NCBI RefSeq assembly: GCF_963921235.1
Contig: NC_086097.1
Span: forward strand, 115,322,001-115,386,000
Direction: 5' to 3'
Length of the DNA: 64,000 nucleotides
Source: Mobula hypostoma
Lineage: Eukaryota
Shown here: piece by piece, positions 21,593 through 25,700 of the stretch
How positions within the stretch are numbered: the stretch's first letter is position 1
How the letters are laid out: each line of letters begins with the position of its first letter
The notes under the pieces: model-generated
The model's database searches: none
What the model was told of the DNA's origin: nothing
The model's input: only the letters and a program-made list of their open reading frames with translations
Translations under genes and position numbers: made by a program

Positions 21593-22300
21593 TGTAAGGG
21601 GGTTTCGATTTTTATGTTACTGCGGAAGCTAATTAAAATGGCGTCTTTGTTATGTTAATCTGGGGAATACGGCTTTGTTGTCTTAAACGCTGAGAAAGTT
21701 TGCGCTAGCAGCTTGTTGTGGTTTAGAGGGTGATAAGAAATACGTTATTAACCAATTGGGATACTTGTTATGGTTTTGGGGTATTTGAAGATACTGTTTG
21801 CGAGGGGGTTTTGGGGGCAGAAGGCGGGAGAGCGAGACAGAGGATGGACGAGGTGCTGTGAGCCCGCTAACGGGGTCGGACCCCTAGCGGGACGTTCGGC
21901 AAGGAGATGGAGACGGATTTGTGTGGAGCGTCTGGTCGACCACCGTTGTTGGTCCCAGGCGGTCGGTTGAGGTGGTCCGAGGGGGTCGCAGGGTGAAGAA
22001 GAAGGACGTTGAGCTCCAACGGTTTTGTGCATGAAGAGATTGAACTTTGATAAGTGTGGCGCCTTTTATTTTCCTTTTATATTTTATTCTCTTTTAATTA
22101 TATAGTTTAATTATATATTCCAGTAATATCTATAAACTGTAAATCATTTAATTGCATCTGGTGTATTGTCTGTTATTTGGGCGGGGTGGGGTACATCACA
22201 CAGCATCCACACAAACAAGTTATCCAGTTTGGCGGGGCCGAGGCTATTTCCCTAGACGACAGCGAGCCGAGCGACCCTGAGGGTGGCCAGGGGGTCTACA
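21593..22300 (+). repeat. 5' LTR (708 bp)
   Basis: TGTAAGGGGG..GGTCTACA; highly similar to 25003-25700. Confidence 0.95.
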
Positions 22301-22322
22301 TTGTAGAGGCTTTGTCCGGGAT
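22301..22322 (+). promoter_or_regulatory. Primer binding site, tRNA-Pro-like (degenerate)
   Basis: ttgtagaggctttgtccgggat directly after the LTR versus tRNA-Pro complement TGGGGGCTCGTCCGGGAT. Confidence 0.65.
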
Positions 22323-22499
22323 GCTTGAGTCTGTTGGTATGCTGTGTGGGTGCCCTGTTTAAATCTGTAATGTGTGTCTCTGTGGGTTATTTGCTGGTGA
22401 TTGCTGTATGCGTGGTGGGTGTGGTCTTTGTTCGAGTTCAGGCTAGCATTGATGAGTTGGAGGTGGCACTCGGGACTGTCCATGCAGTTGGGAGAGAGA

Positions 22500-22900
22500 G
22501 GAAAGAGTGGTCTGATTTGGAGGTAGAGTCTGCGAATAAATGTTCTAGCTCTGGCAGGCTCCGCCTGGCACTTGGGATAGTGTCCACCCCAAGAGGGGCG
22601 GAGACTAGCGAGACGTGGGCGGAGCGGATCTCTCAGTTGTTAGATGAGTGGCAGTGCTAGGTTGAGGGAGAGTGACAGGGATTGGTTGAAAGTTTAAGTA
22701 GGCGGGCTGGTGATGGTGTTAGAGCTGTCAGGTTCACTTACACCGTAGTGACAGCTGTCAGTTATTTGAAAGAGGGGGGAAAGTTTTCAGTGTGTCTCCT
22801 TTGGCGAGGAGGGTGGCTAAATTGCTTGCAGTGCCAGGGGGATCATTTCAGGGGATCAGTTGTTCAGCTGATCAGAGAGGTGTCGGGAAACTTAGTGGAG
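22500..22900 (+). pseudogene. Degenerate PNMA-type Gypsy gag
   Basis: [49 protein letters not shown]; eroded zinc knuckle [10 protein letters not shown] followed by SGN. Confidence 0.75.
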
Positions 22901-23754
22901 GCCCAGTGGGGGAACGGCCTGAGGTTTCTGGGGAAGCACGTTCCCAGCAATGTACCAATGAACTTCCGAAAGGAAAAGATCCTATTCCTGAAGGCTTAGA
23001 GGGGCCACGCCCCAGGGTGTTGCTATGGATAGAGGGAAGCGATGCTAAAGCCATCCTCGACCCCGGGGCGCAGGTCAAGTTGTTGTACAGTTCGTTTTAC
23101 AACCGGTGTCTGAAGCATTTATCCTTGACAACCGCAAGGGCACCGGAGACTTTGGGTACTAGTGGCAGTAGTTATCCAGAAGACGATGATTGGTTAATGA
23201 CCCTGGAGTTCATGGAGGCATTTTCTGGGCACCCAGCATGTCGAGTTGCTTCTGAGGACGTGTGTAGCAGCCTTGAACCAGTACCGAATTTAAACAAGAC
23301 CCAGCGGTGGTACGGCCTGGGGAAAGTAGCTGAGGGTGAGACCCTCTTAGTAGATGCTCTGAACTACCACAAGGGAGGGGAGTTGACCACTGAAGACACC
23401 TCAGTGAGAGAGAGGTTGCAGCAACTAGACCCTAGCGGCGTGGAAGATGAAGGCAGCGTGTGTGTGGATTATGCGATGTGGTTTAATGTGCTGCATCTGA
23501 GGGGTGGATGTTGCCAGATCCTGAGGAGTACGGCTGTTGAGCCGAAGATGGCCTTTACTCGTTCCCTAGGATTCTTCCGATCTGAAAAGATGCCCAAGGG
23601 CATATCCGGAGCCCCTGCATCCTTCCCGCGGGGCATGAGGAAGACCATGGGGGAAGTGAAGATGTGTGGAGTTTTGACGTATGTGGATGACCGCCTAGAG
23701 CTTGGATTCGCCTGGGGGGACTATGAGGCGAGGCGAGTGGCTGAGCCCGGGTGA
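22792..23754 (+). pseudogene. Internally deleted Gypsy pol (protease and RT remnants)
   Basis: [16 protein letters not shown] (protease DTG site changed to DPG); [32 protein letters not shown]. Confidence 0.85.
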
Positions 23755-23799
23755 CCGAAGCGAAGTGTCAAATGTGGAGGAGTTTTTGGCCGGAGGATT

Positions 23800-24714
23800 T
23801 TGGTGCAATGTGAGAAAAATGACCCGACATACCAGTTGAACTTCCTGGTGTTGGAACAGACGGTGGTGGACCTGGGGATGGAAACCCAGGTCGTCAATCT
23901 GAATGAGACACAGGGAAGAGAGGGGATTTGCACCGCACTGCGGTCATGTACTGATGAATTAATCCAGCGAGAAGAAACAATGACCCATCTTCGAAGGGAT
24001 CAGCAGAAACTCAAGACGTCCATTCAGAACAGATTGGAAGATTTACAAGTTGGGGAAGATCAAGGAAGTGTTCTGACTAGGGACAACAGAAAACCGAGAG
24101 CCCAAGGAGGCGAGTTTGACTACACTCCCGAGGAGGTGAAGAAATGGAGGACAGATCTCGGAAAAGGGAGACAGATGCTTGAAAGGAACCTGAAGATGAC
24201 TATCGCGAGTTTAAATGAAGTGGAAAAACTGAAAGTTGATCTGGAAGACGTCCTCAGGAAGAAACAACCGGAGGCTGAACATTCTTTAACTGCTGCTTTT
24301 CAGGTCAGGGTGGAAGAAGCTGGTGGGGTAACTGCGTCCCAGACTGAGATGGCCAGGAACCCTGAGTCAGAACTGCTGAGGCTGTGGCGAGAGTTGAAGG
24401 AGTCCCCAAAGAAGCTGACGTCTCGACTGCAGGAGGCTGAAGGGGTAGCCCCGGCTAAATGTTTCAGTTTGGAGAAACTTAACCAGCAGCTATCGATCGA
24501 GGGAATGAGGAAGGATACGGATTTGAAGGATGATGTGCTGCACATGTGGAACATGCTACCTTTCGCTAACTTCCCCGTGATTGAGGAAGAGACCTTTGGC
24601 CCTTCTCCCACTGAGTCAGGTGTAGTGGGGAGGGCTAGCTGTGGGCAGTCTGAGTTGCGGCAGGATTGGGAAGGAGGAGAGGCGGGGCCCTGGACACGGG
24701 ACTGGGGACTCTGA
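23800..24714 (+). CDS. Open 304-codon frame encoding captured sarcomeric myosin heavy chain rod segments (MYH16-like) plus a retroelement-like tail; expression unknown
   Basis: EKND, [83 protein letters not shown] match myosin S2/LMM motifs in the native order. Confidence 0.75.
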   Translation: [304 protein letters not shown]

Positions 24715-24992
24715 GCTGTAGTGGTGGCCTGAGTGAGAGAGGAGTTGGCAAGCAGGCCTGAGGTATCCCTAGTAGTGTCTGAGCCTTTTGGGTTTAGGTG
24801 AGGGAGTACGGAGATCTCAGAGGGTTAAGAAGCTTCCAGATAGGTTGGCCTATTTAGCGCCCGTGGGACGGGAGTAAGGTCCACTGTTTGGGGAGCACTG
24901 TCACTGTGTGTATCTGTGTATGCGTGTGTTGTGTGTCTGTAGGACTGGGTGGCGAGTTATTTAGAAGTCATGAGGACATGACTTTATTTGCT

Positions 24993-25002
24993 GGGGGGAG
25001 AG
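24993..25002 (+). promoter_or_regulatory. Polypurine tract
   Basis: GGGGGGAGAG immediately before the 3' LTR. Confidence 0.85.
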
Positions 25003-25700
25003 TGTAAGGGGGTTTCGATTTTTATGTTACTGCGGAAGCTAATTAAGATGGCGTCTTTGTTATGTTAATCTGGGGAATGCGGCTTTGTTGTCTTAAACGC
25101 TGAGAAAGTTTGCGCTAGCAGCTTGTTGTGGTTTAGAGGGTGATAAGAAATACGTTATTAACCAATTGGGATAGTTGTTATGGTTTTGGGGTATTTGAAG
25201 ATATTGTTTGCGAGGGGGTTTTGGGGGCAGAAGGTGGGAGAGCGAGACAGAGGATGGACGATGTGCTGTGATGTCCACTAATGGGGTCGAACCCCGAGCG
25301 GGACGTTCTGTGAGGAAAGGGAGACGGATTCGTGTGGAGCGTCTGGTTGACCACCGTTGTTGGTCCCAGGCGGCCGGTCCAGGTGGTCCGAGGGGGTCGC
25401 AGGGTGAAGAAGAAGGTCCTTGAGCTCCAACGGTTGTTGTGCACGAAGAGATTGAACTTTGATAAGTGTGGCGCCTTTTATTTTCCTTTTATATTTTATT
25501 CTCTTTTAATTATATAGTTCCAGTAATATCTATAAACTGTAAATCATTTAATTGCATCTGGTGTATTGTCTGTTATTTGGGCGGGGTGGGGTACCTCACA
25601 CAGCATCCACACAAACAAGTTATCCAGTTTGGCGGGGCCGAGGCTGTTTCCCTAGACAACAGCGAGCCGAGCGACCCTGAGAGTGGCCAGGGGGGCTACA
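25003..25700 (+). repeat. 3' LTR (698 bp)
   Basis: TGTAAGGGGG..GGGCTACA followed by TTTA. Confidence 0.95.

What the first reader, a model, noticed from the sequence alone, without database searches (positions are those of the whole stretch)
21593..25700. Gypsy LTR retrotransposon that captured a spliced myosin heavy chain (MYH16-like) rod sequence
Seen: paired LTRs, TTTA TSD, PBS, PPT, and gag/PR/RT remnants. Where RNaseH and integrase should be (~23806-24501), the frame reads EKND..; [143 protein letters not shown]. Established: these follow sarcomeric myosin S2/LMM motifs (EKNDL, LDDLQAEEDKV, EKK.R.DLE...RKLEGDLK, LEEAGGATSAQIE, KKLA.RLQ.AE..AKC.SLEK) in native order. From memory, LKMTI..LNE and ELL.L.REL fit MYH16 best. 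The segment covers what would be several exons with no introns, which implies capture from mRNA by template switching (inference). Cellular gene capture by a vertebrate Gypsy element is rare, and I know of no myosin-carrying one.
Basis: partly seen in the sequence, partly recalled or inferred. Interest (0 to 1): 0.92.

Follow-up and report, generated by a model that had tools for sequence, protein, structure and literature searches.

The report
Ray retrotransposon family carrying myosin fragment
This is one decayed copy of a very abundant, crippled Gypsy-type jumping gene of stingrays and manta rays that long ago swapped its integrase for an intron-free piece of a muscle myosin (MYH16-type) gene and has carried that piece as apparently useless cargo ever since.

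Summary
Window 21593-25700 is a complete LTR element: two LTRs, a TTTA target duplication, a PBS-like site, a polypurine tract, and islands of Gag, protease, RT and RNase H. It carries about 620 bp (23875-24492) of sarcomeric myosin rod.

The cargo is real myosin, not a generic coiled coil. All 12 solved-structure hits are striated-muscle myosin heavy chains. Older copies of the family are 92-95% identical in DNA to two exons of a host gene (C68:14.61 Mb) and cross their 3-kb GT-AG intron seamlessly. A tree puts cargo and host gene inside the MYH16 clade (99/98).

The myosin replaces the integrase: it lies between the end of RNase H and the Pol C-terminal tail.

This is not a one-off. The genome holds at least about 1,500 copies, at unrelated insertion sites. 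The same junctions occur in predicted proteins of Mobula, Hypanus and Hemitrygon, often mislabelled as myosins.

In-frame dN/dS equals the out-of-frame controls, so the cargo looks like a neutral passenger.

The kind is known (LTR-mediated retroposition, Tan et al. 2016). The scale of amplification is unusual. This scan had already noted the family on another piece of this genome.

The parts
21589..21592 (+). Target-site duplication TTTA (5' copy)
   Evidence: Read directly. It matches 25701-25704. The context is T-rich.
21593..22300 (+). 5' LTR (TG...CA)
   Evidence: Direct repeat with 25003-25700. K2P 0.043 over 698 columns.
22304..22322 (+). Primer-binding-site-like sequence, mutated in this copy
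   Evidence: Three other copies (L040, L046, L048) read TGGGGGCTTTGTCCGGGAT at this place, and L007 begins TGGGGGCTCGT. The likeness to a tRNA-Pro-type PBS is recalled, not tested with a tool.
22556..22732 (+). Gag (PNMA-type) N-terminal remnant, broken by stops and a frameshift
   Evidence: tblastn with P0174 residues 155-217, 40% identity, E 1e-4. P0022 has a weak PNMA hit.
22858..23229 (+). Gag-end and protease remnant (active-site DTG reads DPG here)
   Evidence: tblastn with P0174 residues 444-569, 46%, E 1e-20. Translation seen.
23440..23733 (+). Reverse transcriptase core remnant (YVDD kept, N-terminal RT missing)
   Evidence: tblastn with P0174 residues 892-988, 47%, E 5e-20. L078 Pol 45%, E 1e-18. 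Pfam RVT_1 E 0.093.
23782..23871 (+).
   Evidence: P0174 residues 1166-1195. P0269 residues 1167-1196, 47% over 30 aa, E 0.001.
23875..23937 (+). Myosin block a (about residues 908-928 of Callorhinchus MYH16-like P0024)
   Evidence: Aligns to older copy L050 (...LELETQVADLNE...EEICT...), which is collinear with P0024 888-1133. About 40 codons present in older copies are deleted after 23937.
23938..24264 (+). Myosin block b (P0024 about 965-1078); its last ~150 bp equal exon 1 of the host parent gene
   Evidence: PDB hit query 61-175 on MYH4 977-1091. P0024 alignment. Host exon against this copy: 80% over 149 nt (row L001).
24265..24303 (+). Myosin block c (part of host exon 2; 33 nt of the exon's start deleted)
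   Evidence: Joined exon1+exon2 positions 185-222 match at 84% (rows L001 and L039).
24304..24405 (+). Myosin block d ([12 protein letters not shown]...; P0024 about 1142-1176)
   Evidence: PDB alignment RLEEAGGATSAQIEM. P0005 against P0024.
24406..24492 (+). Myosin block e ([11 protein letters not shown]...AKCFSLEK; P0024 about 1385-1416)
   Evidence: query 139-249 on P0024 1310-1418, E 2e-7.
24517..24621 (+). Pol C-terminal tail (the region after the integrase)
   Evidence: 49% over 35 aa to P0269 residues 1797-1831 of 1956, E 1e-4. The same TDSE..E.GVWY..PF motif lies near the C-terminus of other Gypsy Pols.
24993..25002 (+). Polypurine tract GGGGGGAGAG
   Evidence: Directly precedes the 3' LTR and is conserved across the young and older subfamily copies aligned.
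25003..25700 (+). 3' LTR
25701..25704 (+). Target-site duplication TTTA (3' copy)

Best explanation
The window holds one old, decayed member of a high-copy, non-autonomous Ty3/Gypsy LTR retrotransposon family of myliobatiform rays.

In the family's ancestor, the stretch of Pol from just after RNase H (after the ...YRPG..NID.D.. motif) to the acidic C-terminal tail was replaced. That stretch is the whole integrase, about 530 codons. The replacement was about 530 codons of intron-free cDNA from the rod (S2/LMM) of a host MYH16-type myosin gene, in frame on both sides.

Inferred mechanism: the host mRNA was co-packaged with element RNA, and reverse transcriptase switched templates twice. Alternatively, the 5' joint came from a read-through or spliced chimeric transcript and only the 3' joint from a template switch.

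The chimera kept the LTRs, PBS and PPT, so the proteins of related autonomous Gypsy elements in the same genome could copy it in trans (inferred). It then spread to well over a thousand sites and split into subfamilies. Each subfamily lost different parts of Gag, RT, RNase H and the myosin cargo by internal deletion.

The myosin piece shows no sign of protein-level selection and is best read as a passenger.
For: - Anatomy (shown). LTRs, TSD, PPT and a PBS-like site are present. Gag, PR, RT and RNase H islands lie in Gypsy order. The tail after the cargo matches the Pol C-terminus.
- Cargo is myosin (shown). 12 of 12 PDB hits are striated-muscle myosin heavy chains, in collinear order.
- Parent gene (shown). 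Two exons at C68:14612355-14612504 and about 14615498-14615596 are separated by a 3-kb GT-AG intron. Another exon lies 132 kb upstream.
- Spliced origin (shown). Twelve of 12 older copies (L049-L060) align across the joined exons at 85-95% nt identity: 9 over 241-243 of 249 nt and 3 over 221-229 nt. L050 gives 94.6% over 241 nt.
- MYH16 affinity (shown). Cargo, host gene and Narcine P0015 group at 100/100, inside a clade with lamprey, chimaera and teleost MYH16-like at 99/98.
- Integrase replaced (shown). Older copies L050 and L051 keep RNase H up to ...YRPGSYNIDVDV, followed directly by myosin. The autonomous copy L078 continues there into an HHCC/DDE integrase.
- One capture event (shown).
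  - The 5' junction is shared over 317-321 nt by 5 copies: L050, L051, L055, L068 and L069.
  - The 3' junction (AKC.SLEK...TDS..D...VW.MLPFA) is the same in the window, in L051 and in the Hypanus proteins P0002 and P0022.
  - Hemitrygon P0004 shows the same myosin-to-TDS joint but ends before the VW.MLPFA part.
- Copy number (shown).
  - The ORF2 DNA gave 1530 first-look candidates; 40 of 40 scored are 95-96% identical at full length.
  - The ORF1 protein gave 5604 candidates; 118 of 118 scored are 83-100% identical.
- Independent insertions (shown). Similarity stops at the LTR edge in 7 of 7 copies (3' side) and 9 of 9 copies (5' side).
- Autonomous relatives (shown). The integrase C-terminus gave 3346 candidates, 150 scored at 84-100% identity, with frames up to 1714 aa.
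- Neutral cargo (shown).
  - In-frame NG86 dN/dS medians are 0.55-0.75, against 0.57-1.06 in the two shifted frames.
  - Differences are spread almost evenly over the three codon positions.
  - Only 7 of 118 scored copies have an unbroken frame of 650 aa or more.
- Other species (shown). TE-myosin proteins are predicted in Mobula birostris, M. hypostoma, Hypanus sabinus and Hemitrygon akajei. Contigs of 4 coded organisms bridge the RT-to-myosin joint or the myosin-to-tail joint.
Against: - Trans-mobilisation by the L078-type family is inferred.
- The L078-type RNase H is only 73-77% identical to that of the oldest chimeric copies, so the true partner may be another or an extinct family.
- Template switching is not demonstrated. 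The parent-gene exon at the 5' joint was not retrieved, so microhomology could not be scored on both sides.
- Only one exon junction of the parent gene itself was seen directly. The others rest on the exon structure of a paralogue (L061).
- The parent gene looks odd. Only three exons were found across more than 135 kb, and it sits on a long branch (0.49) in the tree. It may itself be decaying.
- The candidate counts are first-look figures of the search tool, not curated copy numbers.
- The pairwise dN/dS test would miss weak or episodic selection.
Confidence: 0.88

Rival explanations
1. The chimeric Gag-Pol(delta-IN)-myosin-tail frame encodes a working protein. The coiled coil might, for example, multimerise it or help packaging in trans, and this would explain the family's success.
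For: The cargo is in frame with Pol on both sides in older copies such as L051. The replaced and inserted stretches are of nearly equal length, about 530 codons each. Seven of 118 scored copies keep an unbroken frame of 650-836 aa, and L044 has 670 aa. The window's inter-ORF stop is private to this copy.
Against: In-frame dN/dS (0.55-0.75) is no lower than in the shifted frames (0.57-1.06), both for the myosin part and for ORF1. Codon positions differ almost equally. Subfamilies have deleted different myosin blocks. The protease active site, the N-terminal part of RT, most of Gag and its zinc knuckles are gone. No early ATG is present in this copy.
Confidence: 0.05
2. DNA-level origin: the element recombined with, or was rearranged around, a pre-existing processed myosin pseudogene or cDNA, for example by end-joining, rather than by template switching inside a particle.
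For: The genome holds other intronless myosin-tail stretches with stops, at C18:48.75 Mb, C50:30.69 Mb, C184, C157 and C21:138.69 Mb. The junctions could not be scored for microhomology on both sides.
Against: The cargo lies in sense orientation, in frame, between two Pol segments that keep their native order, and it replaces a stretch of like length. This is the pattern described for LTR-mediated retroposition (PMC5131818, abstract and passages). I did not examine the other intronless stretches.
Confidence: 0.06
3. The coiled-coil stretch is a native accessory or env-like ORF of this Gypsy lineage that only resembles myosin, or the host 'gene' was derived from the element.
For: Pfam gives no Myosin_tail hit for the window ORF. 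Coiled coils attract spurious matches.
Against: The cargo is 92-95% identical in DNA to host exons. It nests inside the MYH16 clade next to a host gene with GT-AG introns and a Narcine orthologue. Autonomous relatives have an integrase at that place and no myosin.
Confidence: 0.01

Closest known systems
LTR-mediated retrocopies of animals (Tan et al. 2016, Genome Res 26:1663, PMC5131818; abstract and searched passages read)
   Same: An internal, intron-free host mRNA copy is flanked on both sides by discontinuous LTR-retrotransposon sequence, in sense and often in frame. The paper reports such chimeras in fly, mosquito, zebrafish, chicken and mammals, and notes that some act as non-autonomous elements and are retroposed again.
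   Different: Those cases are young and present in one to a few copies. This one is old, has at least about 1,500 copies, has split into subfamilies and is shared by several ray genera. Microsimilarity at the fusion points, which is the paper's mechanistic hallmark, could not be scored here.
Bs1 of maize (as described in PMC5131818 passages; original papers not read)
   Same: A non-autonomous LTR element carrying pieces of cellular genes, with all copies sharing the same switch points, which implies secondary retroposition of the chimera.
   Different: Bs1 has 1-5 copies and fragments of three genes. This family has thousands of copies and one parent gene. Bs1 is in a plant, this family in a vertebrate. 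Bs1 is described as copia-like in a reference title, whereas this family is Gypsy.
Acutely transforming retroviruses and HERV-K/FAM8A1 (HERV-K case as cited in PMC5131818; the retroviral model is recalled)
   Same: A replication-defective LTR element in which part of pol/env is replaced by spliced host sequence and which depends on a helper.
   Different: There is no sign of selection for the cargo's function. This is a germline Gypsy element and not an infectious retrovirus. It was amplified massively within genomes.
Other cargo-carrying Gypsy elements noted by this scan in the same genome (e1-7790852 RBM25, e1-7790823 SUDS3; AI notes, not checked here)
   Same: The notes describe Gypsy LTR elements whose pol is replaced by spliced host mRNA and which have multiplied.
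   Different: The cargo differs. Whether they derive from the same Gypsy lineage was not tested.

Membership tests
Ty3/Gypsy (Metaviridae) LTR retrotransposon | Paired LTRs ending TG...CA, a short TSD, and a PPT before the 3' LTR | tested here: met
Ty3/Gypsy (Metaviridae) LTR retrotransposon | PBS complementary to a host tRNA 3' end | tested here: inconclusive
   A conserved PBS-like 19-mer follows the LTR in other copies. No tRNA gene was found in the window for comparison. The likeness to a tRNA-Pro site is recalled only.
Ty3/Gypsy (Metaviridae) LTR retrotransposon | Pol order PR-RT-RNase H-IN, with Gypsy-type RT and RNase H | tested here: met
   PR, RT and RNase H remnants lie in that order. 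The best long homologues of the related intact frame carry RVT_1, RT_RNaseH(_2), rve and Integrase_H2C2 and are named Gypsy, 412 or opus Pol. IN is absent from this element, where myosin replaces it, but present in relatives.
Non-autonomous LTR element | Lacks working Gag, PR, RT and IN, yet is amplified with intact ends at independent sites | tested here: met
   Only four Gag-Pol islands are left. There are 1530 to 5604 first-look candidates. Flanks are unrelated in 16 of 16 copies examined.
Non-autonomous LTR element | An autonomous partner with matching LTR, PBS and PPT | not testable with these tools
LTR-mediated retrocopy / transduced host gene | Host-derived insert inside the element that is intron-free relative to an identifiable parent gene | tested here: met
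   Parent exons and their intron at C68:14.61 Mb. The exon junction is crossed seamlessly by 12 of 12 older copies.
LTR-mediated retrocopy / transduced host gene | Microsimilarity at the fusion points | tested here: inconclusive
   Similarity to autonomous Pol ends at ...GAGAGT. A paralogue's exon starts GAAAGC (E-S) at the homologous place, so a shared hexamer is possible. The parent exon itself was not read.
Sarcomeric myosin heavy chain, MYH16 clade | Phylogenetic placement of the rod segment with MYH16 orthologues | tested here: met
   The tree has 26 rows and 256 columns. The MYH16 clade has support 99/98 and cargo plus host gene 100/100.
Sarcomeric myosin heavy chain, MYH16 clade | A complete myosin gene (motor domain, neck, full Myosin_tail_1) | tested here: not met
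   Only about 206 codons of rod are present, in five blocks. Pfam gives no Myosin_tail_1 hit for the ORF. It is a fragment and not a myosin gene, despite RefSeq names such as 'myosin-16-like'.

The most novel reading that the evidence does not exclude
Gypsy elements of this ray lineage may be serial capturers of host mRNAs. This scan's unchecked notes list myosin here and RBM25 and SUDS3 elsewhere in the same genome. On this reading, an in-frame, length-matched replacement of the integrase yields non-autonomous chimeras that out-replicate their helpers. The thousands of dispersed sense copies of parent-gene exons would feed back on the parent, for example through small-RNA silencing or ectopic conversion. 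That would fit the long branch and sparse exons of the MYH16-type parent gene.
Probability: 0.08. Interest if true: 0.75.

Novelty: new member of a known kind. Interest (0 to 1): 0.5.

Why it matters
- It is a clear vertebrate example of a host-gene fragment captured by an LTR element and then amplified to over a thousand copies across several genera. The cases I read about have one to a few copies.
- It has a practical cost. All 16 closest library proteins are ray TE-myosin proteins (14 of them RefSeq predictions). Of the 17 RefSeq predictions I looked up, 8 are named as myosins (myosin-16-like, MYH16, myosin-7B-like, cardiac or skeletal myosin-like), 2 are fused to unrelated gene models (TMEM192, SDHAF3) and 7 are called uncharacterized. 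Gene-family counts for ray myosins will therefore be inflated.
- The shared junctions are a clean marker for dating the family relative to the split between manta rays and stingrays.
- The 5' joint lies within about two codons of a conserved exon start. Reading one more parent exon would therefore separate the splice/read-through model from the template-switch model.

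Tried and rejected
- Pfam on the two window ORFs gave only sub-threshold hits: CdvA at E 0.32 and RVT_1 at E 0.093. Alignment to a full Gypsy Gag-Pol was needed instead.
- The search of 1.84 billion representative proteins returned 20 hits and no full-length myosin. The library-wide E-value is too strict for this decayed fragment. Full-length MYH16 proteins came from the parent-gene protein P0015.
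- I first took the tandem myosin cluster at C68:15.30-15.90 Mb for the MYH16-like source. The tree places it with fast-skeletal/MYH7-type genes, so that idea was rejected.
As a result, the ends of autonomous copies and further parent exons were not read.
- No tRNA gene was found in the window for a PBS test, and no tandem repeats.
- Expression: no RNA holder was listed. Eight small runs are only guessed to be RNA. Contigs of two of them cover the element, but this shows neither transcription nor silence.
- Five literature searches found no report of a myosin-carrying LTR element. The terms were: LTR retrotransposon + myosin heavy chain + gene capture (0 papers); MYH16 + retrotransposon (7 papers, 6 listed, none relevant judging by the titles and abstract starts shown); non-autonomous + LTR retrotransposon + captured + host gene + vertebrate; Mobula + genome assembly + retrotransposon; myosin + transduced + LTR retrotransposon + chimeric. 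Repbase and Dfam could not be searched.
- No structure or complex prediction was run, because a coiled-coil fragment under no constraint would not change the verdict.

Full report
**1. What is at the coordinates**

Window 21593-25700 is a structurally complete LTR element.
- The repeat finder gives four collinear repeat blocks, 21593-22302 against 25003-25702, at 90-99% identity.
- The LTRs begin TG and end CA at 22300 and 25700. In my alignment they differ by 29 substitutions over 698 columns, plus 14 gap columns (K2P 0.043).
- TTTA flanks both ends, at 21589-21592 and 25701-25704. The context is T-rich.
- A polypurine tract, GGGGGGAGAG, abuts the 3' LTR and is conserved in the copies of all subfamilies that I aligned.
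- Three bases after the 5' LTR lies a PBS-like 19-mer. It carries two G>A changes in this copy. Copies L040, L046 and L048 read TGGGGGCTTTGTCCGGGAT, and L007 begins TGGGGGCTCGT. I recall this as a tRNA-Pro-type site. No tool test was possible, because the window holds no tRNA gene.

**2. The element's own genes are remnants**

Pfam sees almost nothing in the two long frames. A full Gag-Pol of a stingray Gypsy element (P0174; Pfam PNMA-type Gag, zf-CCHC, RVT_1, RNase H, rve, Integrase_H2C2) aligns to four islands in native order:

| Island | P0174 residues | Window coordinates |
|---|---|---|
| Gag | 155-217 | 22556-22732 |
| Gag end and protease | 444-569 | 22858-23229 |
| RT core | 892-988 | 23440-23733 |
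| RNase H | 1166-1195 | 23782-23871 |

- Most of the capsid, the zinc knuckles, the N-terminal half of RT and most of RNase H are missing.
- The protease DTG reads DPG.
- The element is therefore non-autonomous.
- The TGA at 23752-23754 that separates the two ORFs is private to this copy. Every contig covering that site in the four runs laid reads C at 23752. Other copies have a continuous frame of about 670 aa, for example L044.

**3. The cargo is myosin**

- The 319-aa frame 23755-24711 hits 12 distinct PDB sequences, all of them striated-muscle myosin heavy chains. The best is MYH4 at E 2.7e-6.
- Query 61-175 lies on residues 977-1091, and further stretches lie around 1106-1187 and 1209-1427, in native order.
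- Against a chimaera MYH16-like protein (P0024) and against older copies of the family, the myosin part resolves into five blocks between 23875 and 24492 (see the parts list).
[21 protein letters not shown] aligns to the RNase H motif SERNYPTHKLEFLALKWAVVD of autonomous Pol.
- The stretch after the cargo, [35 protein letters not shown], is not myosin either. It matches residues 1797-1831 of a 1956-aa Hypanus Gag-Pol (P0269; 49% over 35 aa, E 1e-4). It also shows the same acidic ...TDSE..E.GVWY..PF motif found near the C-terminus of other Gypsy Pols.

**4. A family, not a single event**

- The ORF2 DNA has 1530 first-look candidates in the 3.48-Gb genome. All 40 scored are full-length at 95-96% identity.
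- The ORF1 protein has 5604 candidates, with all 118 scored at 83-100%.
- Similarity to the window stops at the LTR edges in 7 of 7 copies (3' side) and 9 of 9 copies (5' side). The flanks differ, so these are independent insertions and not segmental duplications.
- The twelve best genomic matches to the parent-gene protein (L049-L060) all sit in the same element context at 70-92% DNA identity, so they are older subfamilies.
- Two of them, L050 and L051, carry an uninterrupted stretch equal to P0024 residues 888-1133/1136, followed by the AKCSSLEK block. They also keep RNase H right up to ...YRPGSYNIDVDV.
- The window's subfamily and M. hypostoma P0005 keep the RVEEAGG... block that L050 and L051 lack.
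- The ancestral cargo therefore probably ran from about residue 888 to about 1416, roughly 530 codons. Each lineage then lost different pieces.

**5. The myosin replaced the integrase**

- An intact autonomous relative (L078; a 1019-aa open frame) continues after ...YRPGSRNIDADALSHR into an HHCC/DDE integrase.
- In the chimeras, myosin starts there and the Pol C-terminal tail follows the cargo.
- About 530 Pol codons (P0269 about 1262-1790) were thus exchanged for about 530 myosin codons, in the same frame on both sides. L051 shows one frame through RNase H end, myosin and tail, with a single stop.

**6. Parent gene and spliced origin**

- The Narcine protein P0015, a library hit of the cargo, finds two true exons on contig C68, at 14612355-14612504 and about 14615498-14615596. 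They match at 90% and 80% identity.
- The exons are separated by about 3 kb with AG and GT boundaries. A further exon lies 132 kb upstream.
- The two exons, joined, align to all 12 older copies at 85-95% nt identity, over 241-243 of 249 nt in nine copies and 221-229 nt in three. L050 gives 94.6% over 241 nt. The window copy gives 80%.
- The cargo is therefore cDNA-derived. I saw this directly for one junction.
- The other junctions rest on a paralogue (L061). Its exon breaks fall at about P0024 residues 887, 970, 1028, 1076 and 1107, and all of them are crossed by the uninterrupted frame of L050 and L051.

**7. Which myosin**

- The long hits of P0015 start with 43 proteins that are named myosin-16-like or belong to that cluster. 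MYH7B and MYH7 follow.
- I built a maximum-likelihood tree of 26 rows and 256 columns. The rows were six element-borne segments, two host genes, P0015 and 17 named myosins (the latter chosen by me from the 120 listed).
- It joins cargo, host gene C68:14.6 Mb and P0015 at 100/100. It places them with lamprey, chimaera and teleost MYH16-like proteins at 99/98.
- The tandem myosin cluster at C68:15.3-15.9 Mb, which I first suspected as the source, groups with fast-skeletal types.

**8. One capture**

- The 5' junction is contiguous over 317-321 nt in five copies: L050, L051, L055, L068 and L069. Autonomous copies match only up to the breakpoint.
- The 3' junction is the same in the window, in older copies and in the Hypanus proteins P0002 and P0022. 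Hemitrygon P0004 shows the same joint but ends before the VW.MLPFA part.
- Library proteins carrying the cargo come from Mobula birostris (94% to the window ORF), M. hypostoma, Hypanus sabinus and Hemitrygon akajei.
- The capture therefore predates the split of these myliobatiform genera (inference).
- Contigs from four coded organisms cover the whole internal region. Some bridge the RT-to-myosin joint (X10, X17, X18) and one bridges the myosin-to-tail joint (X18).

**9. Junction detail**

- At the 5' joint the chimeras follow autonomous Pol up to ...GAGGAG.GGGAGAGT. They then read CGAGCTGACACTGAG... (R-A-D-T-E-H-R-C), where autonomous copies read GTTCC....
- In the paralogue L061 the homologous exon begins GAAAGCGAAACTCTGGCAGATGCAGAG (E-S-E-T-L-A-D-A-E-E-R-C) directly after an AG.
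- The cargo therefore starts within about two codons of a conserved exon start, and a shared GA(G/A)AG(T/C) hexamer is possible.
- This fits either a microhomology-guided template switch or a spliced read-through transcript. It cannot be settled without the parent exon.

**10. Is the cargo used?**

- Pairwise Nei-Gojobori dN/dS gave the medians below. I used 136 young-young pairs (135 gave a ratio), 36 young-old pairs and 66 old-old pairs; pairs with fewer than 30 shared codons were dropped.

| Reading frame | Median dN/dS |
|---|---|
| In frame, myosin part | 0.55-0.56 |
| In frame, ORF1 | 0.61-0.75 |
| Same DNA, frames shifted by +1 or +2 | 0.57-1.06 |

- Differences are spread almost evenly over the codon positions, for example 1031, 1112 and 1216 in the myosin part.
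- Only 7 of 118 scored copies have an unbroken frame of 650 aa or more.
- I see no protein-level constraint. The cargo behaves as a passenger.

**11. How it most likely works (inferred)**

- The element is transcribed from the 5' LTR.
- Its RNA is packaged, reverse transcribed from the PBS and PPT, and integrated with a 4-bp duplication by proteins of autonomous Gypsy relatives.
- Such relatives are abundant in this genome: the integrase C-terminus has 3346 candidates, with frames up to 1714 aa.
- The helper's identity is not shown. I could not read the ends of autonomous copies, and their RNase H is only 73-77% identical to that of the oldest chimeras.

**12. Comparison with what is known, and novelty**

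- Tan et al. 2016 (PMC5131818; abstract and searched passages read) describe exactly this architecture in fly, mosquito, zebrafish, chicken and mammals. They also describe secondary retroposition of the chimeras, and they cite Bs1 of maize (1-5 copies) and HERV-K/FAM8A1.
- The kind is therefore known. What is unusual here is the scale (over a thousand copies), the age and subfamily structure, and the spread over several genera.
- Five literature searches found no report of a myosin-carrying LTR element. Repeat databases could not be queried.
- This scan had already noted the same family on another piece of this genome (e1-7791871). It also noted Gypsy elements with RBM25 and SUDS3 cargo (e1-7790852, e1-7790823).

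**13. Verdict**

This is a new member of a known kind. It is of moderate interest as an extreme case of amplification of a captured gene fragment, and as a source of false myosin annotations in ray genomes.

Noticed in passing
G000 C68:15.30-15.90 Mb (locus L061 = C68:15384001-15392000): At least eight tandem, compact copies of a sarcomeric myosin heavy-chain gene lie about 73-95 kb apart, with small introns, and two are on the opposite strand. The tree groups one copy with fast-skeletal-type myosins.
   Followed up: partly
G000 C18:48745523-48746731, C50:30689110-30689772, C184:304888-305403, C157:172388-172903, C21:138691427-138692201: Long intronless Myosin_tail_1 matches with internal stops (profile positions 514-992). 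They cover other parts of the rod than the element's cargo. They may be processed pseudogenes or further captured fragments.
   Followed up: no
G000 C68:14480532-14615596 (loci L062-L065): The MYH16-type parent gene has very long introns (132 kb between two exons). Only three exons were found, and it sits on a long branch in the tree. It may be a decaying or highly derived paralogue.
   Followed up: partly
window 17569-18417 and 36279-37496 (+ strand): Two other open frames have clear RVT_1 domains (E 1e-19 and 3e-33). They are unrelated retroelements in the same window. Neither matched the L078 Gypsy Pol.
   Followed up: no
public proteins P0022, P0007, P0009, P0012, P0013, P0021: RefSeq models of Hypanus and Mobula name element-derived frames as TMEM192 isoform X1, SDHAF3 isoform X1, myosin-7B-like, cardiac or skeletal myosin-like, and myosin-16-like. 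These are annotation artefacts caused by this family.
   Followed up: partly
window 22335 (loose ends in runs X10 and X18): Some contigs share the LTR end and PBS but continue with a different leader (...GGATCTAC...). This hints at other element types, possibly the helper, using the same PBS.
   Followed up: no
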